Assembly (NCBI GenBank): GCA_043228905.1
Contig: JBHGNT010000022.1
Coordinates: 1,612,001-1,676,000 of the forward strand
Length of the DNA stretch: 64,000 nt
From: Azolla caroliniana
Taxonomy: Eukaryota > Plantae > Polypodiophyta
Direction: 5' to 3'
Shown: positions 38,017-61,830 of the stretch, in pieces
Numbering within the stretch: position 1 is the stretch's first letter
Layout of the letters: each line of letters opens with the position of its first letter
The notes under the pieces: model-generated
The model's database searches: none
What the model was told of the DNA's origin: nothing
The model's input: only the letters and a program-made list of their open reading frames with translations
Position numbers and translations under genes: made by a program

Positions 38017-38346
38017 CGTTGAGCGGCAGCTCAACCGGATCCAGATCGACATCTGGAAGGATGAGCCGGATCGGTGAGCTAGTGAGCTGGGGAGCCCATT
38101 AGCCGGATCAAGCAGTAACCGGAACCCTAGTAGCAGCCTAGACTACTAAGTAGTTAATATCTCATAGTTAGTGTTAGACGCTCGTGTGAGCATTGAAGTA
38201 CATTGTACTTCTGTCAGTCCTCTTAGGACTTGTATAAATAGTGTTGTTGAGCACGTTGTATGTACAGAGAATTTTACAGAGTTTTTTGATAATAGATTTA
38301 AGTGGTTCTGCTCTTTCTCTATCTCTACTGTGTACCTTCTATGTGT

Positions 38347-38388
<42 letters not shown>

Positions 38389-41235
38389 CTATCCGGCTAA
38401 GCCGGTTGTCTAATGCTTCAGCACCTTCGTTTTTACATGGTATCAGAGCGCCACGGTTGAGAACCTCTGCAACCGACATCAACATCTAGAGACAAACCCT
38501 AAGACCCGGTAAGAACAGAAAGAGAAGTGATGGACAGAGGAATGGCTAGCTCGCTCCCGGTAGAGAAGCTCAATAGATCCAACTACGCATCTTGGTCATA
38601 CAATATGCACCAGTACCTGCTTGGGCATGGTTGCTGGAGCTATGTCGACGGAGCTAACGACACAACACCTGATGCGGCACACAAGGACTTCCCAGTGTGG
38701 GAACAAGCGGCAAGCAGAGTGATGTACTGCTTTGCGTCCAGTGTCGGAGACCAGCTGCTCAGCCATGTCCGCGATGCCAAGATGCCAAAAGAAGCTTGGG
38801 GAAACCTGAAGAAGGTTTTCACGGCAAGCACTACGGCTCGGAAGCAGCAACTCCGACATGAGTTGAGCAATGTCCAACAGAAGGACATGTCGGTAACCGA
38901 TTACACGGCCTGAATCAAAGAGATCCTTGACTCACTTGCCTCTATCAACGTCACTATAGAGGAAGATGAGATGGTGCAGATCTGTCTTGGGGGCCTAGTG
39001 TTTAAGTTCAGAGCATTCCGAACTACAGTATGTACAAGGGAGAATATGTCATCATTTTTCGACTTACAGTCGATGCTCCTTGTAGAGGAGAACTAGAAAA
39101 GCCGGTAAAGGGCCAGCCTTGGTGATGAATCAACGAGGCTAACTCGATGAAGAAGACCACTTCCAAATCAGAGGAACTGTAGTATGTTGATTCCGTTGCG
39201 TCGAATCACATGACGAGCCACAAAGAGTAGTTCTCCTTCTTGGGGAAACCGGAACAACCGGGAGTCATCAAAACCGTAGACGACACTCCTCACCCAATCG
39301 TGCATGTCGGAGAAGTCCCTTTGAGCCACGTCGGATAGAGGGGGAAGCTGATGAATGTATTACACACTAGAGCAAAACGGTGTGGCCGAAAGGAAGAATT
39401 GGTCGATTGTCGACACCGCAAGGGCAATGTTAGAGGAGAAGAGCATGCCCCATTTCTACTGGGCCTAGGCGGTCCGAACGGCCGTCTATATCCAAAACCG
39501 GATCGGTGACAAGGTGTCCACGCATGACCTATATTTCGGGCGCAAGCCGAATTTGAGACACCTTCGAATATTCAGTAGCATTGCATATGTGCATGTGCTG
39601 GATGAGAAGCAGAAGAAGTTGGATGCAAAGTCGGAGAAATGCATCATGGTCGGTTACTCGCATGAGCAAAAGGGGTATAAGTGTTATAACCCCTAGACGA
39701 AGTAGGTCCGAGTTAGCCGGGATGTTGAGTTTGATGAGACGGCATCATGGTATGCCTTACCGGCTCCGACTTCCGACCCCGACCTGATACCGAAGGATGA
39801 GGCTAGTGAGCCTGAACCGGTCCAATTAGAAGACGAAGGGTTCGAGACTCTAGATGTGAGTCCAGAATCGTTTCGGTTGAGCAGGCCGAACGAGCGACTA
39901 GGTCAGACAGACCAGTCGGAAGATGAACTGGTGAATAGTGGAGACTCTACCATGGTCCCCCCATGCAAGGAATAGAGGAGACGATTCACGCCCAAGGAAA
40001 AGGGAAAGAGGAAGATGCTGGAGCATGAGACCGGCAATGGTGAGTCGGATCGGAGCAAATCCGACTCCGAAAAAGAAGAAGGTGGATCTTCAGCAACGAA
40101 GACCAAACGAGCCAAGAAGGGCCTCAAAGCGGTACGGGTACAATGAGTACATGGCGCATCACTATGCTTACATGACCAAGGTCACAAAAGTGCGTGAGCC
40201 AGAGAGCTACGCAGAATTCGCATGGCGCTATGGAGGAAGAAATGCGGGCTCTTGATGCCAACGACACATGGGACCTAGTTGACCCTCCCCGACACTGTAA
40301 ACCGATCGGATGTAAGTGGGTGTACAAGGTAAACTACAATGCCGACGGTTCGGTTAACCAGTACAAGAGGATATGTGCAGACCCACAGAATTGACTACGA
40401 CGAGACCTTCGCTCTGATAGCGAAGATGATGACGGTTCATGTGGTGCTGGTGGTTGTTACGGTAAGGGGGTGGCATCTTCACCAGATGGACGTGAAGAAT
40501 GCATTTCTTCCAGGCGATCTTGAAGAAGAGGTCTTTATGACCCAACCCCCCGATTTCCAGTCAGAGATGAACAAGTCGGTGGTATGCCGGCTGAAGAAGT
40601 CACTTTATGGCCTAAAGCAAGCCCCCCGAGCTTGGAATGCGAAAATCACACACCGGTTGCGTAAGATGGGATTTGAGGCCTCCAAGTCCGACTCTTCGTT
40701 GTTCATCCGGCAAGGTCCGGACGGTCCGATTTGCATCTTACCGACCGATCTCCACACACCTGGACCGGAACTAGAAGCTCCGTCTCGACTCTAGACCAGC
40801 CTGCGATGAGAAGCAGTTCTGACAAATCATCAGAAGCCTTATATATTTGACAATCACCCAACCCGACATCAATTATCTGGTTGGCGTGATCAACCAATAT
40901 ATGGAGAAGCCGACTGTGGAGCACCTTCTGTGCGCGCATCAAATTTTGCGATATGTGCGCGTCACGAAGGGCCGAGGACTGTTATACCAGCATGGTATAA
41001 CCGAAGAGCTAGTCAGCTACACCGATGCCGATTGGGGCGGCGATGCATCAGATCATCGATCCACCTCCGGCTATATGTTTTCCCTTGGTACCACGTCTAT
41101 TGCGTGGAGTAGCAAAAAGCAGCCAATAGTGGCCCTTTCGAGCACTGAGGCTGAATACCGGGGCTCTACCGTTGACACCTGTCAAGCCAATTGGTTTTGG
41201 CGAATGCTGCAAGACCTGCGGATCGAGGTGCCGAC
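38017..41235 (+). mobile_element. Duplicate of B3 (LTR 38017-38437, PBS 38438-38449)
   Basis: Second unit of the tandem duplication. Confidence 0.9.
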
Positions 41236-43010
41236 TGGCTCACCACTCCGACTGCATATCCGATACCTGGTTGGGTTCATATCATCGCGTACATCAAGCT
41301 CCCGACAACAAAGGCATATGGTATCTTCATCATATCCGTCTTCTCTGCCTTTGTCCTCGGGCTTTATTTACCAGATATCTTGTAGTTTGCCAGAAGTATC
41401 GATACGACCGGTTTTGCCTCCGACATGTTGGACTGTTGAAGCACCTTTGTCACATACTTCTCCTGTGACAACCACAACAACTTATTCGACCGTTCCCGGA
41501 TGATGTGCATTCCCAATATTTGTCTTTCCGGCCCAAAGTCTTTCATTGAGAAGGTATGGTTCAGAGCCTTCTTTAGCATCTGTATCTTACCTTGGTCTCG
41601 TCTGACGATCAACATATCATCCACATACAGGAGGAGTATCAGGAAATCTCCTTCGTCAAATTTATTCACAAACACGCAGTGATCGGCTTGCGTCTTGTGG
41701 TACCCTTGGTCGGTCATGAAGGAGTCGAACTTCCAGTACCATTGCCGGGGAGCTTGCTTCAGTCTGTATAGGCTCTTCTTCAGCCAGCACACCAGGTGCT
41801 CCTTCCCTTTCTTCTCAAATCCTTCTGGTTGATGCATGTAGATGTCTTCTTCGAGGTCGCCATGTAGGAATGTCGTCTTGACATCTAGTTGCTCAATCTC
41901 GAGGTCCATGCTTGCAACTATGCCCAATATCGTCTGAATGGATGTCATGTTTAACACCAAGGCAAAGATCTCATTGAAGTCCACTCCTTTCTTCTACTGG
42001 AAACCCTTCACCACGATTCGGGCCTTATACATGGGTGGATTTCCGGCATCTCCCGGTTTCAACTTGTACACCCACTTGTTCCGGAGTGCTCTCTTCCCTT
42101 TCGGCAACTCCATCAGTTCATATGTGTGGTTCTCATGCAAGGAATCCATCTTGTCCTGCATGGCACTCAACCACTTGCGGCTGTGGGTGTCTTTCTCTGC
42201 TTCTTCAAAGCTTTCCGGCTCCCCCTCATTGGTTAGCAACACATGCTCTGCATCCGGAAATCTCTGTGGGGCTCTTCTCTCTTGAAGAGGATATCTCCAT
42301 CCTTGGTTTCTGACTATCGGTTCCTCCGTTTGTTCCTCATCCTCATCCGATTCGGGATCTTGTCCAATTCCGGTGTCTTCTTCTTCTTCTTCAATCAGTT
42401 CGGTTTCTTGTCCATATCCGTCTGGTTCGTCGAGTGTCATCCGGTTACTGGCTAGCGTCTGGTTTTCAACCGGGTAAGTCCTAGTGTCCTCAAGCCGGTT
42501 TTCATTGAATGATCCGGAGTTCATCACCTTCTTTTCCAACTCCTAGTCAGCAATGGTCCTGTCTTCCATGAAGACTATGTCCCGAGTCCGAAACACCTTC
42601 TTGTCGACCAAATACCACACCCAGTAACCAAATTCACCATCGTCGTATCCAAGGAATATGCATGGCCGGGACTTCGGATCCAACTTTGCTCTCTTGTCTT
42701 TCGCCACATCCACATATGCGAGACACCCAAACACCTCCAAATGCCGGTAAGATACATCTTTACCGGTCCATACTTTCTGATGTGAGTCTCCTCCCAAGGG
42801 TACTTAGGGTGATCTGTTTATCACATAGGTCGTCGTCATCAGCGCCTCAGCCCAAAACGTCTTGGGTAACTTGGCATGTACGAGCATGCTCCAGACTCTC
42901 TCCATTATGGTCTGGTTCATCCTTTCGGCCAGCCCATTTAGTTCCGGCGTCTTTGGCACAATAAACTTGAGTCGGATTCCCTTCGACCAGCAGTACTCCT
43001 CGAACTTCCC

Positions 43011-44049: not shown

Positions 44050-46478
44050 CTTGGCATGCCCATGGGCCAGGATGTTGTCCTGTGAACCCACGGTAACCCC
44101 TTCACTCCTGTTGCTCTGAGGGATGATCTTCCTCCAAATCATCGTCTGCGTCGTCCTACAGAATGTCGAACAATGAGGGTTCCTCTTCTTGTGGTGCCTT
44201 ATTGACATCGTCTTCTTCGTCTTCGGTGTCCTCCTCGTCGTTGTTTTCCTGGTGTGCTTCTTCGGTCGATTGTCTTGGATCTGCTGAATCCGGTGCTCCG
44301 AGTCCAGGTGTTTTGCTTACTCTTTCGGCTTCGATATTGTCTAACTCGATGGACGTATCGACATCATGCTTGTCGAATTCTTGCACGATTTGGTTAACTT
44401 CTTCTCTGAAATAAGCCGCCATGTCGTATAGGTCTCTAACAATATCTTCCTGAACCGTGGTCATTGCTTCCTCCGACATCTTGAGGAAACCTTTGCCTTG
44501 AACTTTTCTATTTTCTCTATCGGCTTGTAATAGTTGAAGCTCTGCAGCTTGCGCCGACCATGTTTGCCAACCCGTCTCTAGTGATTCATTGACCAATTTT
44601 AGGTTGTTAAGCTGGTGACGTCTTATGATTGCTTGAACTCTGTCCTGAGTCATACTTGCCTCAAACTGTGTCGTTGCCAATGTTCATCGTAAATCAGTGA
44701 TTACTGCATTGGTATCGCCTTTGGCCTGCATCAGTTTGGCTTGTGCCACTAAGAGGTCAAGTCGCCTTTTCTCGGATACCGTTTGAACTTCTGCACATCG
44801 CATTTCCAGCTTCTCTTTCTCCTCATTCCAGTCGTTCTGCTATTGAATAATTTTTCCGTTGATTTCTTCTATCAGTTTGGCTCTTCCAACCAACTTTGTT
44901 GTAAAACAAGTCTCTACTTGTTTCGCATTTTTCCTTGTAGCCTCTTGCTGCTGGAGTAACTGTCGGTGTAAATCTTGTATCAAATTATCTTTTTCCTCTA
45001 AGCATTTGTCGGTCGCTGTTTTTGCCGACTGTAATCGATCCTCCATTTCTCTGGATCTGTCTTCGGCCTTTTCTGCCCTAATTTCCGCTTCTCTTTGTGC
45101 TTTTTCGGCTTGTTCCAACTTATGTTGTAGCTCTGAATCCGACTCCAAAGGTTGGCTTTGTGACTCTAGTTATAATATCTGCTCTCTCATTTTCTCTAGA
45201 ACCACTTGTGCTTCCCGCAGTTTACCCTTCAACTGCTAATTTTCTTCATGCTTCCGTGTATACTGTGCATTAAGCACATGTGTTGCTGTTGTTGCCCTTT
45301 TGTATAATTCAGCCATATCCTTGGCTGCTCTACTAGCCTTTTCATATTCCCTGTGGACTTCGACCAGTGCCTCATGTAGTGGTGGCATCTGGATGGCTTC
45401 ACCTTTATTTTTAGCATTTCGTTGTCGACCAATTCTATCCACTTCTGCTTGTTCATTGGGTTCGACAGCTCCACATAATGACTTTTGGATCATTATTTGA
45501 TCCCGGTGCTCTTGCGCCATTCTTTCCGAGACTTCTTGGAGTCTTTTAGCTAACCATTCTATCACTTCATATGACGTTCCGAACTACAGAATGGCAGCTA
45601 GCTCATGTGTTGTTGCCAGGATGTCGGAAAAACCAAGTGCCTCTGGCACCATTGCCGTTGATACATGCCCTTTCTGAATTCGTGACGTGTTATCGGGATT
45701 GACACGAGGTACTTGTGTGCTTTGGGAGGCTTGATCGTCGGTTCTCTGTTTCTTCTACGCCGGTTCTTCTTGCTCTGGTCTAGAATATATTTGGGACCGT
45801 TGTTTAACCCTGCGCTGCTTCGGCGGTTGTTGCTCTGTGTCGACTTGTGTCGATTCTTGCAGTTGTGTTTGTTGCTCACCTATCGTCTCTTGTTGTTGCG
45901 TCCTCGGTGGTTGAAACTCCGGGTGTTGAGTAGTCGGTTCCTGGTCAGGTTCGGGTTGCGGTGTCGACTGTTCCGATTTTTGTTGTTGCCTTGGTTCCGA
46001 TTGGTCGAATTCGGTCTGAGTGGTATCGTCCTGTGCCAATTCTTCTTCCCTCCACTCTTCCTGTTGGACTTGTTGTCGGGTTCGGGATGACTGTACCTGA
46101 GGTGTCTTACGCACCTCTGATCGGTTTTCCGCCTTTGGAGCCGGAAATAATATCGATAACCAACGAGCAAAAATCTTCTTCATTGGTTTTCCCTTCTGAA
46201 CTCTGTACAGTTGCTCTCTTAGAGCTTCTGCCGATAGTAGCCCCCAATCAAAAGCTTCTCCTTCATAAGCGGCGATGATAAATCCGGCCCTCTTTTTGGG
46301 CATACAATAGAATCTCGGACTAACAAACCCTACTTCCAATAAAAACTTTGCAACTTCATGAAAAAAGACATTCCTACCTCCTTGTGTCTGATACGCTTTG
46401 GCGGAGGGCGAATACTCACCAAAATATGAACGCAATCCTTCTTCTATGATCTTCTTGACAACGTCGAACCCGCCTCTT

Positions 46479-46931
46479 TGTCATCATATGGCAAGACTCG
46501 AACCCATGACCTTATGCTACATGGGTCGAGCTCTTACCATTAGACTATGAATTGTAATTTGTAGGATATTATTTTCATTTATGCTTTATCATAGAAAATT
46601 GATGTATATTCCAGATCTCTCTAGAACATTCTAGAAGCTTCAGGATTATTCCTAAAAACATTATAAAAGGAGGCACAAGGCATTGTTTTGAACCAAATTG
46701 GTTCAACGCCAGTCTTAAGCCTCTTAGCCGATTTGTACTTATCTTTTCACATAATATAAGAGTTGCTGTCATCATCCTTCTCTCTCTCTCTTTCTCGCTA
46801 TCTCTCTCTTCTCTTCTCTTCTCTTCTCACTTTCTCTCTCGGGAATCTTACGCAGTCCCGTCCTCTTAGTACTAATAGTATTGCTCTTCTTTAGTACTAA
46901 TTCCATCTCTGCTTTAGTACTACTCCTGACA
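46479..46931 (+). repeat. E 5' LTR
   Basis: tgtca...tgaca; roughly ten substitutions plus small indels versus the 3' LTR. Confidence 0.93.
46623..46642 (+). promoter_or_regulatory. Heat-shock element in the E LTR (also at 51852-51871)
   Basis: aGAAcaTTCtaGAAgcTTCa = four alternating nGAAn units, 20 bp upstream of TATAAAA. Confidence 0.6.
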
Positions 46932-46945
46932 GTTTGAACCAATTT
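46932..46945 (+). promoter_or_regulatory. Non-tRNA (self-priming) PBS of E
   Basis: ttgaaccaattt is complementary to aaattggttcaa at 46695-46706. Confidence 0.75.
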
Positions 46946-46970
46946 TTCCTCCTACCCTTTTCCCTATACT

Positions 46971-48128
46971 ATGGCTACTGTTAGCGCCCAAGAATATCAA
47001 TCCGTTTTCTCCGACCTACAGTGCTTAAAAGAAAATTTTGTTGCCTTGGAACAAGAAAACCAACGGCTGATAGGGGATCTGCAACAAATCTCTCTAGAAA
47101 AGCAACAAATGCAGCAACAACATGGGGAGTTAGCGTTACAGGTGCAACAACTCGAAGCGGCATTGCAACAACAAGGATCAAGTCCCCAAGGATTTCATAA
47201 AGAGCCGAAGATTGGACTTCCTGTGAAATTTGATGGAACGCGATCGCAATTCAGGGGATTCCTTAATCAGGTACGATTAGTCCTCCAAATGCATCCTTCC
47301 CGATACCCCACTGATGCATCCCGAGTCGGCTTAATAGGCACATTGCTTAGCGGCTCAGCCTTAACATGGTTCGCTCCGCTCCTAGAAAAACAATCGCCCT
47401 TGCTTAATAACTTTGAAGATTTTATTAGTGAGTTAAAAGCCTGCTTTGGAGACACCGACAGCATCAGGACGGCGATCAACAAGATCCGGCGATTGCGTCA
47501 AGGCGATCGTCCAACCTCTGCCTACGCGGCGGATTTCCGCCTACTCGCTTCAGACATACCCTGGGATGATCAAGCACTAATGGAGCAGTTTCGCTATGGC
47601 CTGCGAAACGATCTCAAAGATCTACTTCTAACTTTCCCCGAAGAACCAAAGTCTCTTACGGAGGCAATCAGTCGAGCGGTCCGATGTGACAACTGCCTTT
47701 TCGAACGGCGTTCGGAACGTCAATTACAAATACCACGCGCTAGGCCGGAGCCCACTTACGCCGCAGTCGCGGCTAAACCGTTTGCACGAGACATACCTCA
47801 AGCAAATACTTCGACACCAATGGAGATCGATACCATGCGTCGACGCGGCCCGTTATCAGAAGAAGAAAAGCAACGACGACGTGCAAATCGATTATGTCTT
47901 TATTGCGGTGGACCAGGGCATATCGCAATCAATTGTCCCCATAGGCCAAGAAGACAGGTAAATCAAATTGTAGCCTGTACTAAACCCGAGTCAATTCTTC
48001 CCTTAGGAGTGTCTAATAGTATTAATAGTACTAATAGAGTGTTTGATAGTATTCATAGTACTAATAGCCCAAGTATCTCAAATAAATTTGAAATCCTTAG
48101 TCAATTAGATGAAGAGTTAAATGATTGA
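46971..48128 (+). CDS. E gag, intact, 385 aa
   Basis: Coiled coil, PVKFDG, capsid region, PMEID, CLYCGGPGHIAINC. Confidence 0.92.
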   Translation: MATVSAQEYQSVFSDLQCLKENFVALEQENQRLIGDLQQISLEKQQMQQQHGELALQVQQLEAALQQQGSSPQGFHKEPKIGLPVKFDGTRSQFRGFLNQVRLVLQMHPSRYPTDASRVGLIGTLLSGSALTWFAPLLEKQSPLLNNFEDFISELKACFGDTDSIRTAINKIRRLRQGDRPTSAYAADFRLLASDIPWDDQALMEQFRYGLRNDLKDLLLTFPEEPKSLTEAISRAVRCDNCLFERRSERQLQIPRARPEPTYAAVAAKPFARDIPQANTSTPMEIDTMRRRGPLSEEEKQRRRANRLCLYCGGPGHIAINCPHRPRRQVNQIVACTKPESILPLGVSNSINSTNRVFDSIHSTNSPSISNKFEILSQLDEELND

Positions 48129-51100
48129 GTCCAGCCAAAATAGGAGTCGTTTGGTTGGACAGCAGCCCTAGATCTGTACAGCCCATTAGTGGTTCCATTC
48201 CTTCCAAGCAAGTTAGCAATGTGTTCCTAGCCCAAGTCATTGTTAGTACTAAAAGTACTCCCCCAGTACCCGTCCTAGCACTTTTAGATTCCGGAGCTAA
48301 TTCCTATTTCATGGATCAAAATTTTGCCCAAGCTTCTCAGATATCCTTAAGAAAACTTCCTTGTCCCGCAGCTGTAGTAGTCATTGATGGTCGTCCCATT
48401 GCTTCCAGGAATATTGTAGAAGAATCAGAACCCATTCAAGTTGTCCTAGGTAGTTTTGTGTGTGTAATATCATTTAATATAATTAGTAGTCCAGAGCATC
48501 CCATTGTCCTAGGATTACCTTGGTTTAAATTACATAATCCAGCCATAGATTGGAGAACAAGAGAAGTCCGATATCGACCACCCCAAGAATCAACTCACCG
48601 AGTTTCGACCATTTCACTCCATCAACTACGCGAAGAAGGACCCAAGGAGGCAATGTTCCTATTTGCAATATCAGTACATCCTTCCAACACTATTAAGAAG
48701 GACTCCTCAGTACAACTTCCAGCAAAATATCATCCTTATGCCGATGTATTTGACAAGGTAAAAGCCGGTACCCTTCCTCATCACCGTCCCTATGACTGTC
48801 CCATCGATTTACAACCAGGAACCGAGCCACCATGGGGACCAATTTAAAACTTGTCACCCACCGAGTTAGAAGTCCTTCGAGCCTACATAGAGGAGAACTT
48901 GGCAAGTGGGTTCATCCGTCATTCGAAATCTCCGGCTGGTGCACCCATCTTCTTTGTCAAGAAGAAAGATGGCTCACTTCGTCTTGTCGTTGATTACCGC
49001 GGATTGAATAAAGTCACCATCCGGAATAGGTATGCACTTCCTCTTATATCAAGTCTTTTAGAGCGAGTTAATGGTGCCAAGTTTTTTACTAAAATCAACC
49101 TACAAGGAGCGTATAACCTCGTGCGGATCCGACCGGGAGATGAATGGAAGACCGCCTTTCGCACGCGGTATGGGCATTTCGAGTATACTGTTATGCCGTT
49201 CGGCCTAACCAATGCACCCGCAGTCTTCCAACACATGGCAAATGATATATTCAGAGACCTCTTGGATATCTGTTTGATCATTTATCTGGATGATCTATTG
49301 ATTTATTCGAAGACCCAGGAAGAGCACGATTCTCATGTACTATTAGTACTAAAGTGACTCCGCGAGAATGGTCTTTATGCCAAGCTAGAAAAATGTAGCT
49401 TTGACTGCAAGCAAGTGGAATTTCTAGGCTACGTCATCTCCTCAAAGGGCATCGCCATGGATCCAGCTAAAATCCAAACTGTACTAGAGTGGCAAATTCC
49501 ACGGTCGGTACGAGATGTACAATGTTTTCTAGGTTTTTCTAACTTCTACCGTAAGTTTATACAGGATTACTCGAAGATTATTTTACCTCTCACACAACTT
49601 ACGAAGAAGGGCCAAGAATTTCTTTGGTCCATAGAAGCAGATATGGCTTTTCGGCATCTTAAGAAAGCCTTTACATCAGCACCGATTCTAGCTCATGTGG
49701 ATACAAGAAAACCATTCATCATGGAGGCCGACGCATCAGATTTCGCCCTCGGTAGCATCCTTTCTCAACCAGGAGATAAAGAAGAGTTGCATCCGGTGGC
49801 TTTCCATTCGCGCAAATTCGATGTCACAGAAATCAACTACGAAATACATGACAAGGAGTTATTAGCCATCGTGGATTCATTTGTACAATGGCGGCATTTT
49901 TTAGAGGGCTCTCCACATCAGGTCATTGTCTTTAGCGATCATAAAAATCTTGCTTATTTTCAGAACGCTCGCGTACTAAATCGACGGCAAGCTCGGTGGG
50001 CGCAATTCCTCACGCGTTTCGACTTCAAAATCACATATCGACCGGGGAAGCAGCAAGGAAAAGCAGATGCACTATCACGGCGTTCATATCTTGCACCTCG
50101 TCCTGGTGATGCAACATTTGATCATCAAAAGCAAGTAATCTTGGGACCAACACGATTGCACACGACGCAGATTTTTCACACCCCGATGGATTCACGGATT
50201 ACCGATGACATACATGCAACCTTGAAGACGGATAGTTTTGCTCAAGACATCCTGGCGCACATTGATACTTCTCGGGCATCGTGTTCTCGGTCTCAACAAC
50301 CAGGTATTGACTACCGACAATTCGAATATCATGATGGTTTGTTATTCTTTAAGAAGCGCGTATATGTCCCTGATTGCTCCTGTCGCCTTCAAATTGTCCA
50401 GCATTGTCACGACACCCATACGGCGGGACATTTCGGTAGTACTAAGACGTTGGAGCTAGTGCAGTGATCTTTTTGGTGGCCCCACATGCGCCGTTTTGTC
50501 GACGACTACGTTCGGACCTATGATGCTTGCTGCCGAGCGAAGATGCCACGACACCATCCATATGGCTTGTTGGAACCCTTACCGATTCCAAGTAAGACGT
50601 GGCAGTCTATTTGTCTTGATTTTATCACAGATCTACCAGTCTCGAAGGGGTTTGATGCTATCCTAACCATCGTCGATCGATATACGAAGATGGCACATTT
50701 TGTGCCGTGTACTAAAGCCATCACTAGCGAGGAAACCGCCGCCCTTGTTATGCGTGAGGTATTTCGGCATCATGGCCTCCTAGACAGTATCATCAGCGAC
50801 CGAGGACCGCAATTTGTCTCCAAATTTTGGCAGCATCTCTTCAAGATGCTCAAGGTCTCCTGCAATCTCTCCTCCGGCTACCATCCTCAGACCGACGGGC
50901 AAGCGGAACGAACAAACCAAACGTTGGAGCAATATCTCCGGTGTTTCCTGAGTTATCAACAGGACGATTGGGCCGAGATTCTCCACTTTGCAGAGTTTGC
51001 GTATAATAATGTTATTCACTCCTCGACTCGGGTCTCCCCATTTTTCGCTTATACCGGTTTTCATCCTCGTTGGTCGGTGATCGACACCCCGGAGCTACCT

Positions 51101-51696
51101 ACCAACCCTCGTGTCGAGGATCATTTGGAGAGGCTACACAAGATCCAGATGGATCTCTCTACTCACCTTCGTCATGCTCAACACACACAGAAGACTTATG
51201 CGGATCGTCATCGGATTCCCTCCTCTTTTGCCATCAGAGATCGAGTATGGCTCTTACGTCGTCACATCAAGACTACTCGACTGTGCGACAAGTTGGATTA
51301 TCGACGACTCGGTCCCTTCCGTATTATGGGTAAGATTAATGATGTCACATTCCGCCTTGATCTCCCTCCGCGCTTCAGATACATCCGGTTTTCCATTGTT
51401 CTCTTCTTGAACCTTATAAAGCAAACACCATTCCCGATCGTGTGACACCACCGCCGCCCCTGCTGGAGTTGGACGTCGGGCCGGAATATGAAGTTGCTGC
51501 CATCCTCAATTCCAAACTTGTTCGCAACAAACTTTATTACTTGGTCGATTTGCTCCGTTATAGTCCGAGCGAACGTACTTGGGAACCCGTCGAGCATGTT
51601 GCCAATGCATAGGATCTTCTTGCTGATTTCCACCGAAAGTATCCGGACAAACCCGGTTCGCAATTAGCGCCGACTCGTTCCACTCGTCGTCTTTAA
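48125..51696 (+). pseudogene. E pol (protease, RT, RNase H, integrase, chromodomain) with in-frame stops and a late frameshift
   Basis: LLDSGA, YLDD, EADAS, ISDRGPQF, and EYEVAAILNS...TWEP after 51440. Confidence 0.92.
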
Positions 51697-51707
51697 GGGG
51701 GAGATAG

Positions 51708-52154
51708 TGTCATGATATGGCAAGACTCGAACCCATGACCTTATGCTACATGGGTCAAGCTCTTACCATTAGACTATGAATTATAATTTGTAGGATATTA
51801 TTTTCATTTATGCTTTATCATAGAAAATTGATGTATATTCCAGATCTCTCTAGAACATTCTAGAAGCTTCAGGATTATTCCTAAAAACACTATAAAAGGA
51901 GGCACAAGGCATTGTTTTGAACCAAATTGGTTCAACGCTAGTCTTAAGCCTCTTAGCCGATTTGTACTTATCTTTTCACATAATATAAGAGCTGTTGTCA
52001 TCATCCTTCTCTCTCTCTCTTTCTCGCTATCTCTCTCTCTCTTCTCTTCTCACTTTCTCTCTCGGGAATCTTACGCAGTCCCGTCCTCTTAGTACTAATA
52101 ATACTGCTCTTCTTTAGTACTAATTCCATCTCTGCTTTAGTACTAGTCCTGACA
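51708..52154 (+). repeat. E 3' LTR
   Basis: Matches the 5' LTR. Confidence 0.93.
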
Positions 52155-52714
52155 CTCTTGGCATCTCCAACGCCGCTCTTACCTTCTTATTAGTGATCTT
52201 AGAGACATTGATTTCTTCCATTAGAGCTTCAGTGTGCAGGTGCGGCTCTGCTTCTGAGACTTTCAAGAATCCTTGTAAATTATTGCGAATGAGCCAGCGA
52301 CGCAAGTCATCAGATACAGTAATCGGCATATTGTCGTTGTCGATTGACATATCGTCGCTCTGTGGTGGCGGTGGAAAACATTGTGGGCTATGGCAGAGAA
52401 GATCAAAAAACCTATGAGCGCGAATACATTTCTACTTCTGTGGTGAAACAAACATTACAAAAATAGGTTTTAAGGAAATAATTCTTTGCATGATGCCTAG
52501 GGAATAAAAGTACTATTAATGTAAGAAATGACTAGGTGTACTATGGAGTAATAGCTAGAAATAGCAATAATGACTAATAGAAGCATGCCTCCACTACTTC
52601 TTACTTATAGCCTTCTTAAATCATTCCAATATTCCCCTTTTGACAGTTAGTTATGATTTGGCAAGAAAATTTTCTATAGTTTTTTTTTGTTGTTGTTGTT
52701 GTTACGTTACCACA

Positions 52715-53909
52715 TTACTTTTCTTCCGATTCAACCTTGAATGGATTTTCCGGCATTTCTCCATGATATGGCTTAAGCTAGAAACCATGGACCCATTTCG
52801 GCAAAATCTCACCTGATAGGGTTCCCAGTTGATACGTACCATTTTTACTATTCACGATCCAAATTGGTCATGTCCATCTATACCTAAGTTTACTTGGCAT
52901 AGCCCCATCCTGGTTTGCAAAACAAGTACCACTTTCCCAATTCCGAATTGAGTTTCGGTCTTTCGTCGGTGTCGATTTACAAATGCCTTCGTTTGCCTCT
53001 GCTTGTGCTCCAAAGCTGACATAGCTTGTATTCGGTCTTTTTCTAACAGTAATAAAGATTCCTTCCGAATTTGCTCCGATTGTAGTTCATTTAATTTCTT
53101 GGTTGCTTGTATTCGGAGTGTCGGAATCTAGAATTCGATTGGCATAACTGCCTCTAATCCGAAAGCCATTTGGAAGGGTGTTGATTTAATAGATGTTTTG
53201 TACGACGTGCGATATGCCCATAAAGCACTATGCAACTTTTGATCCCAGTTCATACGATTCTCATTTACTATCTTTTTGAGTATCGTCTGGAGGGTTTTGT
53301 TTGTCGATTCCGCCAATCCATTCGCTTGTGGATAGTAAGCCGTGCTTTTCTTATGAACCACTGCATAGTATGTAGACAATTCATGAACAAGCTTGTTAAT
53401 GAAATGTGTACCTTGATCGCTCACTAATTCTATTGGGTAGCCGAATCTACACCATATACTTTCGTACAAAAATTTTGTTGTTGAAGCTGCCGTATTATCC
53501 CTAAGAGCTTTAGCTTCTACCCACTTTGTGTAGTAGTCAATGGCAACTATAATATATCGATTGCTTGTACTTACTGTTGCCGGTTTGAATGGGCCTACAA
53601 AATCCAAACCCCATTTCTGGAAAGGTTCAAGAGATAACACAAGTTGAAACGGCATCCTGTCCTTTTCAGTCGGTTGTCCCATACGTTGGCATAAATCACA
53701 TTTCCGACAATATTCTACTACATCCTTCATCACTGTCAGCCACCATAAGCCACTGTTCCATATTTTTCTGGCTATGGTTTCTCCAGCATAGTGCCCTCCT
53801 GCAATTCCCGAAGAATGACCGATTTTTCGAATTGTCGTACTGCTCTTCTCCACATACCATCTACTCCTTTATGATACAGAGTGTCGTTCAAAAGAAAAAA
53901 ATTACGACT
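52715..53909 (-). pseudogene. C2 integrase remnant
   Basis: ORF 53128-53853 with DFVGP, SDQGTHF, WAYRT. Confidence 0.9.
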
Positions 53910-56758
53910 GTGGCACAAGTAGTTTGGCCATGTAAATTTCCCATGGCTTCGTGAGATGCAGATGAAGAACATTGTTTTCGGCCTGCCGAAATTTCGGGGC
54001 CGTAATGGCCAAGTCTGCGAAGCCTGTCAGATGGGAAAACAGCACCGACTTCCATTCCCCAATGAGCGTAATCATAGTCGAAGTCCGTTGGCTTTTATCC
54101 ACTCGGATGTGTGGGGACCGGCACAGAACGTCAGTCTTGGTGGAAGCCGTTACTTTGTAACCTTCATCGACGACTTCACTCGGCACACGTGGGTATGCAT
54201 GATCGCGAAGAAGAGCGAAGTCTTCGCATGTTTCCTGAAGGTGAAGAGCCTTGCGGAAAGGGAAACAAGGTGTAAGATCAAATGCCTACGGTCCGATGGC
54301 GGGAAGGAGTACTTCTCCGACCAGTTCACATGTTAGTGATGGCGGGAATTCTGAGGAAGAAGTCAATGAGGCCGAAATGCCTCCGTGCGATGAAGAAATC
54401 GGAGCTCTGAGAGAGAGTCCGATCTCATTTTAGCTAAGTGGGCCGAATGAGGGGTTGGGCCAAAATGGAAAACCTATTGAAGAGACGGTGAGTAGTGGAG
54501 ACTCAGTCGTGATGTCCCCGCATAAAGAACCGAGGAGACGGTTTACGTGCAAGGAGAAGGGCAAGAAGAAAATGCCTGAGTACGACTTCAGCAACGCCGA
54601 GTCAGTTCAGACCGAAGCTGAAATCGAGCCGATCATAAAGGAACCTTCGTGGAAGAGGTCAAAATCGGCCGAAAAGGTCGTGAAATCAGGTAATCACGAA
54701 TTACGCCGATCTACCCGCCTGAAGAACCCCGTGAAGAGATACAAGTACAATGAATACATGGCGCACCATTATGGGTACATGATGCGAGTGGCGAAAGTGT
54801 GTGAGCTGGGGAGCTACGCAAAAGCAGCGAGAGATGCGAATAGGCATGCCGCAATGGAAGAAGAGATGCGCGCTTTGACTGATAATGAGACTTGGGACCT
54901 AGTTGACGCACAGAAGGGTGTAAAGCTGATTGGATGCAAGTGGGTATATAAAGTGAAATACAACACCGACGGCTCTGTCAACCGATATAAGGCCCGCTTA
55001 GTAGCGAAAGGCTACATGCAGAAGCATGGCGTGGACTACAACGAGACCTTCGCGCCTGTCGCGAAGATGACTACCGTGCGTGTTCTACTAGTCGTAGCTA
55101 CGGCAAAGGGGTGGCACTTACATCAGATGGATGTAAAGAACGCGTTCCTGCAAGGTGATCTTGAGGAATAGGTGTACATGGTACAGCCCCCCGGATTTCT
55201 ATCCGAACAAAACACTTCGGCAATTTGCTGACTGAAGAAGTCACTCTATGGACTTAAGCAAGCCCCGCGAGCCTGGAACGCGAAGATTACGCAATAGTTG
55301 CGTAGGATGGGGTTTACGACGTCGAAATCGGACTCTTCACTCTTTGTTTGGCAAGGTCAATATGGACTGGTAAGTCTTCTCCTTTATGTTGATGATTTAG
55401 TCATCGCCGGTGCCAACCTGGACAAAATCCACCGTATAAATCCATCGCGGCATCATTTGAAATGAAGGATCTCGAAGACCTTCATTACTTCCTCGAGATC
55501 GAAGTGATCCGCACCCCCGAAGGCATATTGATCAGCCAGCATCATTACGCGTTGAATATGCTCTTCAAGTTCGGGATGGCAAACTGTAAGCCCATCTCGA
55601 CCCCTCTGGATAGAAACGCAAGCTTCGCAGAGATTCAGGAAAGGCATGCGACCCGACACAGTTTCGATAGATTGTCGGAAGCCTCATCTATTTGACGATT
55701 ACTTGGCCAGATCTTAGCTACCCAGTCGGCTTAATCAGTCAATTTATGTCACAGCCTACAACCGAACACTTTCAGTGCGCGCAAAGGATATTGCGATATG
55801 TCAACGGCACAAAAGACATGGCGTTGCTCTATCGAGCAGGCATAGCCGAATAGTTAGTCGGCTAAACAGATGCCAATTGGGCCGAAAATGCCCATGATCG
55901 TAGATCCACATCTAGATACGCATTCTCATTAGGAAGTGCGGCGATCGCATGGAGCAGCAAAAAGCAGCTGACAATGGCACTGTCGTGCATGGAGGCCGAA
56001 TATCGAGGGGCGACTGTCGCTACGTGCGAAGTCATTTGGTTGAAATCGCTATTACGAGATCTGCATGTAGAGGTGTCTGATCCGACGACGATCTATTGCG
56101 ACAACCTCAGCAATATCCACCTTGCGAAAAACCCTGTGTTCCATGCAAGGACCAAGCACATTGAACTGCATTACCATTTTGTCTATGAGCGGGTTCTTTC
56201 AGGTGAAGTCGAACTAGTGTATGTTCCGACGGATCGGCAGGTTGCTGACATCTTCACCAAGCCTCTTGGTCTCAACAAGTTGGGAGAGCTAGGAATGCGT
56301 CACCTCGACACGCCGAACTTGAGGGGAAGAAAGGAAGAACAGGAACAAGAGAGTGAAAGGAGCGGAGGTGTTCATCACAGTGGAAGTGACCGTGATGAGG
56401 AATCGTATGAAGAATTCGATTTCAAACCGGCTGAAGAAGCCGAAGAAGAGAGCAAGGGCAGCAATCGTAGGGAAGAGTTGAGGATAGCCAAATCAGGGGG
56501 ACATACAGCCAAGAAGGGCGTAAAGGCCAAGACCAAGATGTGGTCTGATGTAGTCAAAGGCCTGAAGACTGAAGACGAATTGGAGACAGCCAATACCGAT
56601 GAGAGCGGAATTGAATCGGAAGTGTTCGATTCAATCTAAATGTTTGATTCGGATATGCCGAATCAACTGATGGCCATGCGGAGAAAAGGGCAGCAAACGA
56701 CGCGCCGACACCACGACAACAAGGGAGCTAAGAAGGGTCAGATGAGCAGACAAGCCGA

Positions 56759-57382
56759 TGTCAAGATTCGAACTCTTGACATGACCATGTTATAATCGAG
56801 TGTTATGTGTTAACCACACATCTAGCATATAATCATGTATATACTTCCTCATTGTAGGTTTTAGCAAGCATCATGTGCATAATTTCTCCCTTGTATTATT
56901 TACACTTGGTACATGCATGTATACCTACTGCCTACATGCTCTATTGTATCACATGCGTGCAACAGGTATGCATGCCACTTAGTATAAATAGTTGAGTTCA
57001 CCTTGAAGGAATTCAAGGTGAACAACGCCAGTCATGGACATATCAATCTAGTATTCTCGTTTCGCCCATCTTCTCTCCTTAATCTTCATCTATATCTTTA
57101 TGCTCTTGTGTCATTCCGTCATCGCTCCATCGTAGCCTCATCATCTATGCTCCGTCTTAGTCCGCACTTGGTGTGTCCGTGACAGTTCGTTCACCTTCCA
57201 ACTAGAAGCATCACCCGTCTCCGTCATCGCCTTTGCTTCTAGAGTTACCATCGTCACCGTACCATCATCAACATCGCTTCATTTCCTATCTTCCTCGCCA
57301 TTTCTATCTCCTAGTTTCTTCTCATCATTTTCATTGGCTTTTAGTTCTCCTCATCGTTGTCTCTATTTTTTAGTTTCTTTCT

Positions 57383-57441
<59 letters not shown>

Positions 57442-58388
57442 CCGGTGAGGCCTACACAAGGCCATTCACTCCCGTTGGTGTTCGTGTTCGAGTTCCCGGT
57501 GAGGGCCGCATGGTCGCTCACGCACGTTCGTGTTCGAGTTCCCGGTGAGGGCCGCATGGTCGCTCACACACGTTCGTATTCGAGTTCCCGGTGAGGGCCG
57601 CATGGTTGCTCACACCCATTCGTGTTCCTGTTCCTAGTGAGGGCCACATGGTCGCTCACTCCCGTTCGTGTTCCAATCTCCGGTGAGGACCGCACATGGT
57701 CGCTCACTCCAGTTATTTTTCATGTTCCACATCCCGGCGAGGACCGACATGGTCGCTCATGCCCATTGCGGCTCATGTTCCAATTCTCGGTGAGGACCAC
57801 ACATGGTCGCTCACTCCAACTATTGTTCGTGTTTCAGATCCCGGTGAGGACCGACATGTTCGCTCATGCCTGTTGTTTTTCATGTTCCAGTTCCCGGTGA
57901 GGACCACACATGGTCGATTACTCCCGTTTGTGTTCTTGTTCCCGGTGAAGGCCACATGGTCGCTCATTCGTTCGAACTCTTGACATGACCATGTTATAAT
58001 CGAGTGTTATGTGTTAACCACACATCTAATATATAATCATGTATATACTTCCTCATTGTAGGTTTTAGCAAGCATCATGTGCATAATTTCTCCCTCGTAT
58101 TATTTATACTTGGCACATGCATGTGTACCTACTGCCTACATGCCCTATTGTATCACATGCGTGTAACAAGTATGCATGCCACTTAGTATAAATAGTTGAG
58201 TTCACCTTGAAGGAATTCAAAGTGAACAACGCCAGTCATGGACATATCAATCTAGTATTCTCGTTTTGCCCATCTTCTCTCCTTAATCTTCATCTCTATC
58301 TTTATGCTCTTGTGTCATTCCGTCATCACTCCGTTGTAGCCTCATCATCTGTGCTCCGTCTTAGTCTGCATTTGGTGTGTCCGTGACA
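56759..58388 (+). mobile_element. Non-coding LTR element F with TSD GCCGA; LTRs 56759-57184 and 57971-58388 (first 8 nt missing)
   Basis: tgtca...tgaca termini, gccga on both flanks, near-identical direct repeats. Confidence 0.92.
57384..57970 (+). repeat. (GTTCGT)n microsatellite followed by about 11 hairpin-forming units of 46-55 bp
   Basis: Core ccggtgaggrcc-N-catggtcgctcac recurs from 57441 to 57968. Confidence 0.92.
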
Positions 58389-59704
58389 GCCGACTGGATG
58401 GGTCGAGGCGCGCGAAATCGAACAGGTCGAGGAGCACGAGTGAGGCGTGAAGCCAGAAGGAACCGGAGCATAGATTCGGAGGAGCGGACGGAACCTCAAG
58501 TTGAGCTTGAGGGAGAGTGTTGAGACACAAGCTCAACATTCGATGTGTAATCGGGTGCATAACCCAGCGTGTAAACTGGGTGCGTAAAACCGTGCGCACA
58601 ATAGGCCGTAGTGGTGCGTAAACCGCGAGGCCGTTGGAAAGATATTCCGCATAGGAATATATTTTGGGAGTTAGTGTAGAGCTCATTTATGAGCGGTCAA
58701 GTACTGTCAGTACTTGTGTCAGCCCGATAGTCAGGGCTTGTATAAAAGGTGCTCACTGAGCACGATATATGTACAGAGCGTCATTATTTTGAAATAGAAC
58801 TGAGTTGTCTGCTCTCTCTCTGTGTTTTCTGCGTTTACCGAACTGTCTTATTTCTGAACTGTGTACTCTGCACAGCGATGGCGACGGTGGCGGCGAGGGG
58901 GGGGTTGTGGCGACCACCGCCCTTCGGAAAGTTGTGGTGAGCTGAGCTTCACATTCAGCTCTGCGCAATTCAGCTCCTGCTCCTGCACTCGCTTCGTTCT
59001 GCTGTGTGGTGGCTGCTGCTCCTCCGCTCTTTTGTTAACACTCTTCCCCGGAGGCCGCTGCCTCCATTGCTCTGATGCCTGCCTCCACTGCCTGCCTGAC
59101 CTTTGAGCATATTTTTCTTTAGAGTTTGGGTTTTGATCTTGTTTTGAAGAGTGTAAGAAACATAATGAGGAGGTATTTAATGAGACGAAGGTCATTTATA
59201 CCCTTTGATAAAAGGGTTTTGATTGTAATTGGACTATCAATAATATCACCCATAGTGATAGTATGAACCATACATACCATACTTGCATTCGCATTCACGA
59301 ATGGTTCATCCTAAAACTCCTCCTTCCAAACCCCCAACACACTCAATGAGTCGTAGCCTCTCAAGGTGTAGAAAAAGAAGATGATGATAAAAAATGAAAG
59401 TGGAGAGCGATTGCCCCACCCCTTTTTTTATTATGTAAGATGTCACATTTTCTTTTTATCTAAGGTGTCACACAACGATAGCCAAATATATATATATATA
59501 TATATATATATGAAAGCAGACTTATAAATAGTAGAGTAGACTTATAAATAGTAGAGTAGCTATAGATGCTTAGAGTATAGATAGCCTGATTTGTATATGC
59601 TATTCACCTAACTAACTAATGGGAAGCAGTTTTTTCTCGGAAAAAAAAGAATGAAATCTACCAACCCAAAAAACTCTTTAAGATATACAGAAATCTTCTA
59701 AACT

Positions 59705-60160: not shown

Positions 60161-61600
60161 TCAAAAGAGAGTCCCTGCTGGGGCAGCTGATTCGGTGGTG
60201 GTGGTGGTGTCGTCGGCCGGGATTAAGGCGGAGGAGATCGGGGATCGGCCCAGCTCATACGCAACTCGTTGCCGGAAGAGCTCCCCGTTCTCACGCTCCT
60301 CCACGGGGGCATCCAGCGCCTCATTGATGGAGCCCTCTATGTTGGCATAGTACCCGGCGCTGTTCCGGTACAGCTCCGCCACCATGCCCATCTGCATGTC
60401 ATTCGAGAAGCTCCCGGCAAATGCCGCCATGGCGCTGCAGGCGGCCGCCATTACCCCCAAATGCTGGGTGATGCCGATTGGGCCAGTGGCCACGAGCACC
60501 GGCTGTGCCGCGTTCAGGAGGGCCGCCGCCGCCGCTAGCATGGGCGCCGCTATAGCCAGGGATTTGTTGATCTTCACCACGTTCGTCGCCCAACTGGTGT
60601 ACGTCTTAATGTCCGAGCGGCGGAGGCGGGCGGCGACGCCCCGGAGCTCCGCCTCCAGGTCCGCATTCCAGCCGCCGCTCCGCACCCCTGCTTCTTCTTG
60701 GGCTTCGGATCTCTGGTCGGGGACGATGGGGCCGCTTGGGCGGGCGAGAGGGGCGATGAGCAGGGGAGGGAGCATTTGGGATGGGAACTTCTCGAGGCCG
60801 CCCGGCGTGAGCGGCATGGGGAAGGCTTTGTCCAGCGCTTCCAGGCGGCGGCGGCAGTCCCGCAGAACAACCGCCGATGGCTGCCGGAGATACGGCGCCG
60901 CTTTGATCGCATAATCGATGTCGCTCACCAGTTTGCGGAAGAGGCGAGCCGCGGTCCTCTGCTCCTCGGCCAGCTGAGAGGGCTGGAACTGGTTTATGAC
61001 CGACATCATGGCGGCGCCGCCGGCGTTGAGAAGGGCGGCCGGCAGGGTGAGGCTGGCGACATTGGCGGAGATTTGGGCGGCCGCCATGGCGCCGCTGAGG
61101 GCGGCCAAGACGGTGGCGGTCATGGAGGTGGCGGTGAGGGTGTGCTGGAAGAGCTTGTTCCAGTTGTCGCGCTGGGTGGCCAGGATGGCGTGCATCTCGG
61201 CTCGGTCGGAGGCGGCATTGGCCACTAGGCGGAGCTCCGCCACGCGGAAGGCCTCCGCCGCCGCCGCCGCCTCTTCAGTGGCGGTGGGGCTGGGTTGCTG
61301 GCGGTGGAGGGGGGTGTGGGCGTCCCAGAAGGAAAGGGGGTCATCTCTCATGGAGGTGTAGCTACTGCTGGCAGCGGCGGACTGGTCCTGCGGGGGGGTG
61401 AGGCGCGGCGGCGCTTTGGTGGCGGAGGAGGAGGAGGAGGAGGAGGAGTCGGGGGTTTGCTGAGAAGCATTAATGGCGCGGCGGCGGAGGCGAGAGGTGG
61501 CAGAAGAGAGGGAGATGAGGCGTGGATGATGATGCGTGAAGGAGTCGTGAGAATTCGGAGCGGCGGCGGCGGTGGCGGCGATGGCGGCGATGGCGCTCAT
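60161..61600 (-). CDS. Intronless host gene, At4g22030-like / petal-formation-expressed family, 479 aa, possible plastid transit peptide
   Basis: DRAEMHAILATQRDNWN, QPSQLAEEQRTAARLF, LDKAFPMPL...LEKFP, ELYRNSAG, ERENGELF motifs recognised from this family. Confidence 0.88.
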   Translation of the reverse strand: MSAIAAIAATAAAAPNSHDSFTHHHPRLISLSSATSRLRRRAINASQQTPDSSSSSSSSATKAPPRLTPPQDQSAAASSSYTSMRDDPLSFWDAHTPLHRQQPSPTATEEAAAAAEAFRVAELRLVANAASDRAEMHAILATQRDNWNKLFQHTLTATSMTATVLAALSGAMAAAQISANVASLTLPAALLNAGGAAMMSVINQFQPSQLAEEQRTAARLFRKLVSDIDYAIKAAPYLRQPSAVVLRDCRRRLEALDKAFPMPLTPGGLEKFPSQMLPPLLIAPLARPSGPIVPDQRSEAQEEAGVRSGGWNADLEAELRGVAARLRRSDIKTYTSWATNVVKINKSLAIAAPMLAAAAALLNAAQPVLVATGPIGITQHLGVMAAACSAMAAFAGSFSNDMQMGMVAELYRNSAGYYANIEGSINEALDAPVEERENGELFRQRVAYELGRSPISSALIPADDTTTTTESAAPAGTLF

Positions 61601-61830
61601 AGCAGGCGGCGGAATATATAGAGAGAGAGTGTGTGTTGTTGTGCTTCTATTGATGGCTAAAATTGGAGATAGAGAGATAAAAATAGAGACAATTATTGCT
61701 CGCTCTTTGTTTTGGCTTGGCTTTGGTTCGATCTCTGTGTCTCTTTGTTTCTTCTGTTTTTCTGTCTTTTGCTGCTTCTTTCTTCTTCTCTCACAATTCC
61801 TTCATATAAACTCATAGAGACACATATACA

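What the first reader, a model, noticed from the sequence alone, without database searches (positions are those of the whole stretch)
46660..57197. Self-priming architecture with an upstream anti-primer hairpin, shared by LTR families E and F
Seen: neither element has a TGG-type PBS. In E, the PBS position (46932-46945, gtttgaaccaattt) is complementary to aaattggttcaac, 33 nt after the TATA start. In F, the PBS position (57185-57197, gttcgttcacctt) is complementary to aaggtgaacaac, 32 nt after the TATA start. Each duplex has one bulged base, and both primers run into the same motif CAACGCCAGTC. Both LTRs also carry a second copy of the PBS sequence just upstream of the primer, forming a hairpin: E ttgaaccaa-a-ttggttcaa, and F gttcaccttgaa-ggaa-ttcaaggtgaac. 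Known: S. pombe Tf1 primes with the 5' end of its own RNA. Inference: primer, PBS and anti-primer have changed together between the two families. The U3 copy would exist only at the RNA 3' end and could mask the 3' R copy so that only the 5' end primes. I do not know of this anti-primer being described.
Basis: partly seen in the sequence, partly recalled or inferred. Interest (0 to 1): 0.85.

Follow-up and report, generated by a model that had tools for sequence, protein, structure and literature searches.

The report
Hairpin masking a retrotransposon's own primer
These plant jumping genes carry a primer site that pairs with their own end repeat, so they likely start copying from their own RNA as yeast Tf1 does, and most related families also keep a hairpin arm just upstream that changes in step with the primer and likely hides the spare copy of it, a safeguard I did not find in the papers searched.

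Summary
E (46479-52154) is a Ty3/gypsy chromovirus whose RT groups with fungal and frog elements. F (56759-58388) is a non-coding relative. Each primer-binding site (PBS) starts 2 nt after the LTR and pairs with 11-12 LTR bases that lie about 32 nt after TATA. That duplex has no bulge; the window's F copy has one point change. Self-priming is already predicted for this (Tcn1-type) clade in print. The upstream U3 arm is the addition. It masks the primer better than shuffled U3 in 33 of 35 distinct LTR cores (23 at p<=0.05), sits at different offsets in the two subclades, and shows one clean three-way compensatory change (L253). Against a strict role: one nested lineage lacks the arm yet spread, family G's arm is weak, E's own is borderline, and the stem has no RNA-strand bias. 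No RNA data could place the start site. Most likely (about 0.5) the arm hides primer copies that have U3 in front, chiefly the RNA's 3' copy.

The parts
46479..46931 (+). Element E, 5' LTR (453 bp, TG...CA); target-site duplication CTCTT at 46474-46478 and 52155-52159
   Evidence: LTR pair 96.5% identical
46494..46547 (-). tRNA-type B box (46494-46504) and A box (46536-46547) at tRNA spacing, on the minus strand near the outer end of U3 (side finding)
   Evidence: no Rfam tRNA match
46662..46668 (+). E TATA box, 33 nt before the primer
46688..46695 (+). E anti-primer arm in U3 (8-bp stem with 46699-46706; its last base is the primer's first)
46695..46706 (+). E predicted self-primer, 12 nt, beginning at a pyrimidine|A site (predicted start of the RNA)
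46707..46714 (+). Junction motif CGCCAGTC after the primer; predicted cleavage point at its 5' edge; in several families it pairs with the LTR end and the GT spacer
46934..46945 (+). E PBS, 2 nt after the LTR end, exact complement of the primer
46971..51694 (+). E gag (Ty3 capsid, CCHC) and pol (PR-RT-RH-INT-chromodomain); this copy is broken by stop codons and a frameshift
51695..51707 (+). E polypurine tract
51708..52154 (+). E 3' LTR, with arm 51917-51924 and primer copy 51924-51935 (the copy that would carry U3 in the RNA)
56759..57184 (+). Element F, 5' LTR; target-site duplication GCCGA at 56754-56758 and 58389-58393; inserted in a copia element
56983..56989 (+). F TATA box, 32 nt before the primer
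56996..57007 (+). F anti-primer arm (12-bp perfect stem with 57012-57023, 4-nt loop)
57015..57025 (+). F predicted self-primer, 11 nt
57026..57044 (+). F junction motif and R segment that pairs with the end of U5 (57173-57184 and upstream)
   Evidence: folded on family copy L032: -26.2 kcal/mol, 0 of 200 shuffles
57187..57197 (+). F PBS, 10 of 11 bases complementary in this copy (11 of 11 in 29 of 31 family copies with a PBS call)
57198..57970 (+). F non-coding internal region with tandem repeats; this copy has lost the polypurine tract and the first bases of the 3' LTR
57971..58388 (+). F 3' LTR (5'-truncated), arm 58200-58211, primer copy 58219-58229 with one change

Best explanation
E and F are chromovirus-type LTR retrotransposons whose primer-binding site is the complement of 11-12 bases of their own LTR, so they likely prime reverse transcription with the 5' end of their own RNA, and the U3 arm just upstream is predicted to fold over any primer copy that has U3 in front of it and likely keeps that copy from reaching the primer-binding site. 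Steps. (1) Shown: the complementarity, its register and its covariation. (2) Inferred: transcription starts at the pyrimidine|A about 32 nt after TATA, so the RNA's 5' end is the primer and has no arm. (3) From Tf1 by analogy: primer and PBS pair and RNase H cuts after base 11 or 12. (4) Shown in folding models only: with U3 attached the primer is tied up in a hairpin. (5) Inferred: the RNA's 3' end (U3-R) holds a second primer copy; if it paired with the PBS and were cut, the acceptor for minus-strand transfer would be lost, and the arm lowers that risk. RNAs that start upstream in U3 would be masked in the same way. The arm is helpful rather than essential.
For: Primer and PBS match at 11 of 11 bases in 83 of 105 own-genome 5' LTRs with a PBS call, across seven primer sequences (calls needed <=3 mismatches). 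All 35 distinct cores start the primer at pyrimidine|A. From the predicted start, median P(primer:PBS) is 0.87-0.95 in all nine subfamilies. Primer opening energy exceeds the shuffled-U3 mean in 33 of 35 cores, 23 at p<=0.05; it is >=7 kcal/mol in 24 of 35 against 2 of 155 control segments from further upstream. U3 arms are clade-specific in swaps: F U3 gives 14.6 on its own primer and 3.6-6.6 on E/H primers; E/H U3s give 0.6-4.4 on the J primer. The conserved U3 bases sit at -5..-1 in the E/H clade (20-23 of 24 cores, against 8-16 at all but one of positions -21..-6) and at -19..-8 in the F/J clade, each where pairing needs them. L253 changes primer, PBS and arm together; the inner stem, wholly in U3, switches A-U to U-A (covariation score 0.214, shuffles 0.081, slid controls <=0.032). 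A U3-bearing primer copy binds the PBS fragment less well by a median 8.6 kcal/mol; 18 of 23 elements beat shuffled U3 at <=5 of 100 (14 of the 23 were hand-picked from 41 metagenome loci).
Against: One clade nested among arm-bearing families has no arm (L208, L236) and still left at least 9 LTR copies in this genome. G's arm is no better than shuffles (241 of 500) and E1's and E2's are borderline (52 and 46 of 500); F and J U3 mask the G primer better than G's own. With U3 attached in cis the arm beats the PBS only in E1, E3 and J (P 0.00-0.03), partly in F (0.64), and not in E2, E5, H1, H2, G (0.71-0.96). The plus-strand RNA hairpin is the more stable strand in only 11 of 35 cores. In 3 J copies primer and PBS changed and the arm did not. 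Only 3 of 12 pairs show a two-sided change (80 of 500 shuffles reach this), and part of that count comes from the out-of-register J and G rows. Tf1's two flanking helices are poorly supported: 8 of 33 and 3 of 33 elements.
Confidence: 0.5

Rival explanations
1. The same palindrome acts in the minus-strand cDNA. It folds over the freshly copied complement of R bases 1-11, so that neither the RNA primer still attached to the cDNA's 5' end (which RNase H would then destroy) nor the cDNA's own 3' end can pair there.
For: Stems are mostly Watson-Crick and about equally stable on both strands, as RNA and as DNA; G-U pairs number 18 on the plus strand and 26 on the minus strand. Ty3 makes displaced single-stranded intermediates (PMC5371799, passages).
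Against: That part of the cDNA is normally made double-stranded soon by plus-strand synthesis from the adjacent polypurine tract (established knowledge). No cDNA data were available.
Confidence: 0.2
2. The arm is a by-product. Fold-back template switching during reverse transcription copies the primer in reverse into U3 from time to time, and the arm then decays without a function.
For: Stem length runs from 5 to 13 bp, and long perfect stems run on into the junction motif (L213, L221), as fold-back copying would give. The arm is lost in one lineage, weak in G, and lags in J.
Against: The five-base arm core is kept in 20-23 of 24 E/H cores while most neighbouring U3 positions vary. Imperfect stems with bulges, G-U pairs and single compensatory changes are kept. 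Exact-arm LTRs number 3,077 against 9 for the armless lineage, although copy number is weak evidence.
Confidence: 0.18
3. The palindrome is a promoter or 3'-end signal: it fixes the exact start site, which a self-primer needs, or it helps termination and polyadenylation in the 3' LTR.
For: It straddles the predicted start site. Start-site choice controls Tf2 mobility (PMC5341516, passages).
Against: Arm sequence and offset differ between clades, so it is not a fixed protein-binding motif. The armless lineage keeps the same TATA-to-primer spacing and an intact PBS.
Confidence: 0.09
4. The PBS binds a tRNA fragment, for example one ending in the T loop, and the LTR match is incidental.
For: The last 7 bases of the E/H primers match the T loop of a tRNA-Lys in this genome.
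Against: F, G and J primers match only 4-5 bases of any of 39 distinct tRNA sequences (an incomplete set of 12 isotypes). The PBS follows the LTR primer through seven sequence variants.
Confidence: 0.03

Closest known systems
Tf1/Tf2 of Schizosaccharomyces pombe and the Tf1/sushi group (PMC7175516, PMC10085805, PMC4600332: passages read; the primary Levin papers were not held)
   Same: 11-12 nt at the predicted RNA 5' end complementary to a PBS next to the LTR; chromodomain integrase; RT groups with fungal and vertebrate elements.
   Different: An upstream U3 arm against the primer is not mentioned in the passages read. Tf1's two flanking helices are supported in only 8 and 3 of 33 elements here. 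Whether Tf1 itself has an arm could not be checked, because its LTR alignment is a picture.
Plant Tcn1 clade of chromoviruses (PMC6317226: passages and supplementary table 5; PMC2864245: passages)
   Same: Non-seed-plant chromoviruses with an aromatic-cage chromodomain, 5-bp target duplication, overlapping gag and pol; self-priming predicted for 83% of 1,500 elements.
   Different: That survey only scored complementarity between LTR and PBS. Its passages give no start-site geometry, junction motif or second arm. Its element table and sequence file were too large to read.
TAR (Houba/Osr-1) Ty1/copia elements (PMC6317226, passages)
   Same: Predicted self-priming in plants.
   Different: Other superfamily; not examined here.
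LTR-position switches such as the HIV-1 poly(A) hairpin and the duplicated epsilon of hepatitis B virus (recalled, no call)
   Same: A signal present at both RNA ends that must work at one end only.
   Different: Here the duplicated signal is the primer itself, and the silencing arm would be present only at the 3' end.

Membership tests
Ty3/gypsy chromovirus | Domain order gag, PR, RT, RH, INT | tested here: met
   Pfam scan of E's frames
Ty3/gypsy chromovirus | C-terminal chromodomain | tested here: met
   Found in 15 of 15 full-length relatives examined; damaged in the window copy
Tf1/sushi group, plant Tcn1 clade | Aromatic cage in the chromodomain | tested here: met
   Y..W..Y pattern in 15 of 15 copies; criterion from PMC6317226
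Tf1/sushi group, plant Tcn1 clade | RT-RH groups with fungal and vertebrate elements, apart from seed-plant chromoviruses | tested here: met
   Split supported 100/99 in a 25-row tree, midpoint-rooted
Tf1/sushi group, plant Tcn1 clade | One clade with named Tcn1, PpatensLTR or SM-Tcn1 references | not testable with these tools
   No named reference sequence was returned by any search
Tf1/sushi group, plant Tcn1 clade | 5-bp target duplication; gag and pol in overlapping frames | tested here: met
   CTCTT and GCCGA; overlapping long frames in L179, L180, L182, L183, L184
Tf1-type self-priming | PBS complementary to the LTR and not to a tRNA 3' end | tested here: met
   (tRNA set incomplete)
Tf1-type self-priming | Primer is the 5' end of the RNA | not testable with these tools
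   Only geometry: 30-33 nt after TATA, pyrimidine|A in 35 of 35 cores
Tf1-type self-priming | Three-duplex 'pretzel' around the PBS | tested here: inconclusive
   Upstream helix above shuffles in 8 of 33 (mostly F/G/J clade, not E), downstream helix in 3 of 33; 30-nt windows only
Tf1-type self-priming | RNase H cleavage after base 11 or 12 | not testable with these tools
   Needs biochemistry
Non-autonomous LTR element (F) | Short, non-coding, with LTRs, PBS and polypurine tract of an autonomous partner | tested here: met
   20 F loci with two LTR cores: spacing 0.55-1.7 kb, no gag/pol hit, tract-like motif in 17; L273 is a gag-bearing element with the same primer and arm

The most novel reading that the evidence does not exclude
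Self-primed retrotransposons face a problem that tRNA-primed ones do not: their primer occurs twice in the RNA. This lineage has a dedicated cis safety catch, a U3 anti-primer that silences every copy except the true 5' end. It has been re-set in different registers as primers changed, and may be a general, overlooked part of self-priming across gypsy and copia elements.
Probability: 0.4. Interest if true: 0.75.

Novelty: new variant of a known kind. Interest (0 to 1): 0.57.

Why it matters
Self-priming has been worked out experimentally mainly in Tf1. How the 5' primer is chosen over its twin at the RNA's 3' end is not addressed in the papers I could read. A family with thousands of copies, seven primer variants, arms from 5 to 13 bp and a natural armless lineage gives ready contrasts for that question. 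The geometry (TATA, primer, junction motif, GT spacer, PBS) also predicts the start site and cleavage point of a major plant retrotransposon group to the base.

Tried and rejected
RNA evidence: no RNA holder listed, so no reads were laid and nothing follows about expression or start site. Viral contigs gave no relative. Rfam found nothing relevant over the E LTR or two relatives; ARAGORN found no tRNA in the window. The idea that G-U pairs would point to the RNA strand failed. A search for a longer-range masking segment in the armless lineage found none (P paired with U3 0.15-0.30). F as the LTR of the surrounding copia element was rejected by its own target duplication. Of 78 metagenome loci, 32 gave no primer-PBS pair (not examined one by one; many contigs are short) and 5 calls were dropped as spurious before counting (L217, L230, L241, L246, L252). 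One single-copy subfamily (E4) was left out. Tf1/Tf2/Tosmo LTR sequences could not be read from the supplement. Literature searches for the arm found no description; primary Tf1 papers, Butler 2001 and the Esnault-Levin review were not seen and may mention it.
Full report
What the elements are. E is a full-length Ty3/gypsy element at 46479-52154 with 453-bp LTRs (96.5% identical) and a CTCTT target duplication. Its frames give gag, protease, RT, RNase H and integrase, broken by stops and a frameshift. Fifteen of 15 full-length relatives examined carry a chromodomain with the Y..W..Y cage. The RT-RH of E, H and J groups with fungal and frog elements, apart from seed-plant and algal chromoviruses (100/99). 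This matches the published description of the plant Tcn1 clade (PMC6317226, passages and supplementary table 5), but no named Tcn1 reference was in the tree. The host is likely a non-seed plant (inference from that clade's published range). F, 56759-58388, has its own GCCGA duplication and sits inside a copia element. It belongs to a non-coding family: 20 loci with two LTR cores gave no gag or pol hit. The window copy has lost its polypurine tract.

The observation. Every motif is at the stated place. The PBS starts 2 nt after the LTR's final TGACA. Read that way, E pairs 12 of 12 bases and the F family 11 of 11, without a bulge. The pattern TATA-gap-AACGCCAGTC has 3,140 matches against 3 for the control. 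Further pattern searches gave families with other primers: G (57 matches), H (52) and J (most of 115). Among 223 LTR cores in fetched loci, 105 had a PBS call, and 83 of these match their own primer at 11 of 11 bases (the call required at most 3 mismatches). A gag search of metagenome contigs gave 78 loci at 60-98% identity. 46 gave a primer-PBS pair, 5 were dropped as spurious, and 41 were kept. These contigs come almost all from one series of assemblies and may overlap this species, so they add lineages rather than independent hosts.

Self-priming. From the predicted start, the primer pairs with the PBS with median probability 0.87-0.95 in all nine subfamilies. All 35 distinct cores begin the primer at pyrimidine|A, 30-33 nt after TATAAA in the own-genome families. 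No tRNA among 39 distinct sequences matches more than 7 terminal bases (E/H) or 4-5 (F, G, J) (incomplete set). Tf1 pairs its first 11 bases with the PBS and is cut by RNase H between bases 11 and 12 (PMC7175516, passage). Self-priming is already predicted for 83% of 1,500 Tcn1 elements. One difference: Tf1 needs three duplexes (PMC10085805, passage). Here the helix between R and the U5 end beats shuffles in 8 of 33 elements, mostly the F/G/J clade, and the helix 3' of the PBS in 3 of 33.

The upstream arm, for. Opening the primer costs more with native U3 than with shuffled U3 in 33 of 35 cores, 23 at p<=0.05; means are 9.7 against 3.6 kcal/mol for 155 control segments. Swaps between clades lose the effect. 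The conserved U3 bases move with the pairing need: positions -5..-1 in the E/H clade and -19..-8 in the F/J clade. L253 shows a three-way change in primer, PBS and arm. The inner stem, wholly within U3 and so free of PBS constraint, switches A-U to U-A, and G-U is tolerated next to it. The covariation score is 0.214 against 0.081 for shuffles and at most 0.032 for slid controls; the tool warns that relatedness inflates this measure. In two-strand folds, U3 weakens binding of the primer to the PBS fragment by a median 8.6 kcal/mol over 23 elements. An exact five-base arm core is found in 3,077 E/H-type LTRs, next to 3,232 matches of a pattern that does not ask for it (the patterns are not strictly nested).

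The upstream arm, against. L208 and L236 form one clade nested among arm-bearing families (99/90). They have no arm and no longer-range substitute, and the lineage has 9 LTR matches in this genome, two followed by an intact PBS. G's arm does not beat shuffles, and E1's and E2's are borderline under dinucleotide shuffling. In cis the arm outcompetes the PBS in only three of nine subfamilies. The stem is no more stable on the RNA strand than on its complement (11 of 35). Three J copies changed primer and PBS but kept the old arm, so primer and PBS are coupled more tightly than the arm is. Only 3 of 12 pairs change on both sides, which shuffles reach 80 times in 500.

How it most likely works. 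A self-primer lies in R and is therefore present twice in the RNA. The 5' copy begins at the cap and has no U3. The 3' copy has U3 before it and is followed by the same junction sequence, so it could build the same structure with the PBS. A cut there would remove the 3' R that minus-strand transfer needs (inference). The arm folds over that copy, and in the longest stems (E3, J, L213, L221) also over the predicted cut site. I put this at about 0.5. The same stem could instead guard the minus-strand cDNA (0.2), be a by-product of fold-back copying (0.18) or serve start-site or 3'-end choice (0.09). These are not exclusive: fold-back copying may create the arm and selection keep it.

Novelty. 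Seven literature searches and passages of ten papers (PMC6317226, PMC2864245, PMC3601003, PMC10085805, PMC4600332, PMC5341516, PMC3035444, PMC7175516, PMC7466625, PMC5371799) showed no U3 arm against a self-primer. None was read whole. The primary Tf1 papers and the Esnault-Levin review were not held, and two large supplementary files of PMC6317226 and the LTR figures of PMC10085805 could not be read; any of these could bear on the claim. An unchecked note of this scan (e1-7577152) reports a U3/R hairpin beside a self-priming PBS in a diatom Copia element; I did not test it and do not count it as support. Verdict: a known priming mode with a real, covarying, apparently undescribed and dispensable add-on; new variant of a known kind; interest 0.57.

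Noticed in passing
window 46494-46547 (- strand); L199, L208, L210, L213, L259, L263, L266 and others: The outer end of U3 carries, on the minus strand, a tRNA-type A box and B box. 25 of 31 cores with U3 in the contig gave a scored pair, 22 of them at 43-45 nt spacing (tRNAs: 44-45); 16 of 31 beat the best of 60 shuffles. The sequence between the boxes differs between lineages, and Rfam calls no tRNA. It may be a TFIIIC site, an outward Pol III promoter, or a tRNA-pairing site as in Ty3's U3 (PMC5371799). Earlier unchecked notes report similar boxes in probably fungal elements; one literature search found nothing on it.
   Followed up: partly
L263, L266 (U3, - strand): The tRNA-like stretch is most complete here (score 27.9; relaxed ARAGORN calls tRNA-Tyr) and ends in CCA, which suggests capture of a whole tRNA.
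   Followed up: partly
window 56759-56781: The F LTR begins with an inverted repeat whose loop is the B-box core.
   Followed up: no
L194, L195, L196, L091 (family G); L031-L060 (family F): F and G are non-coding families of about 1.6-2.3 kb with tandem internal repeats; a similar repeat lies inside the autonomous J copy L190.
   Followed up: partly
window 34178-41504: A 3,662-bp tandem duplication, 99.9% identical, of copia-like sequence; recent duplication or assembly artefact.
   Followed up: no
window 44099-53909 and 18100-22265: E is inserted in a repeat that has an inverted copy at 18100-22265 (84-87% identical); the window is a nest of copia and gypsy insertions.
   Followed up: no
G000:C1:11022209-11046395: Five E-type LTR cores within 25 kb, with repeated flanks, suggest a tandem or duplicated array.
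   Followed up: no
window 60161-61801 (- strand): Host gene with Pfam PF14476 (Chloroplast_duf), E 2e-86.
   Followed up: no
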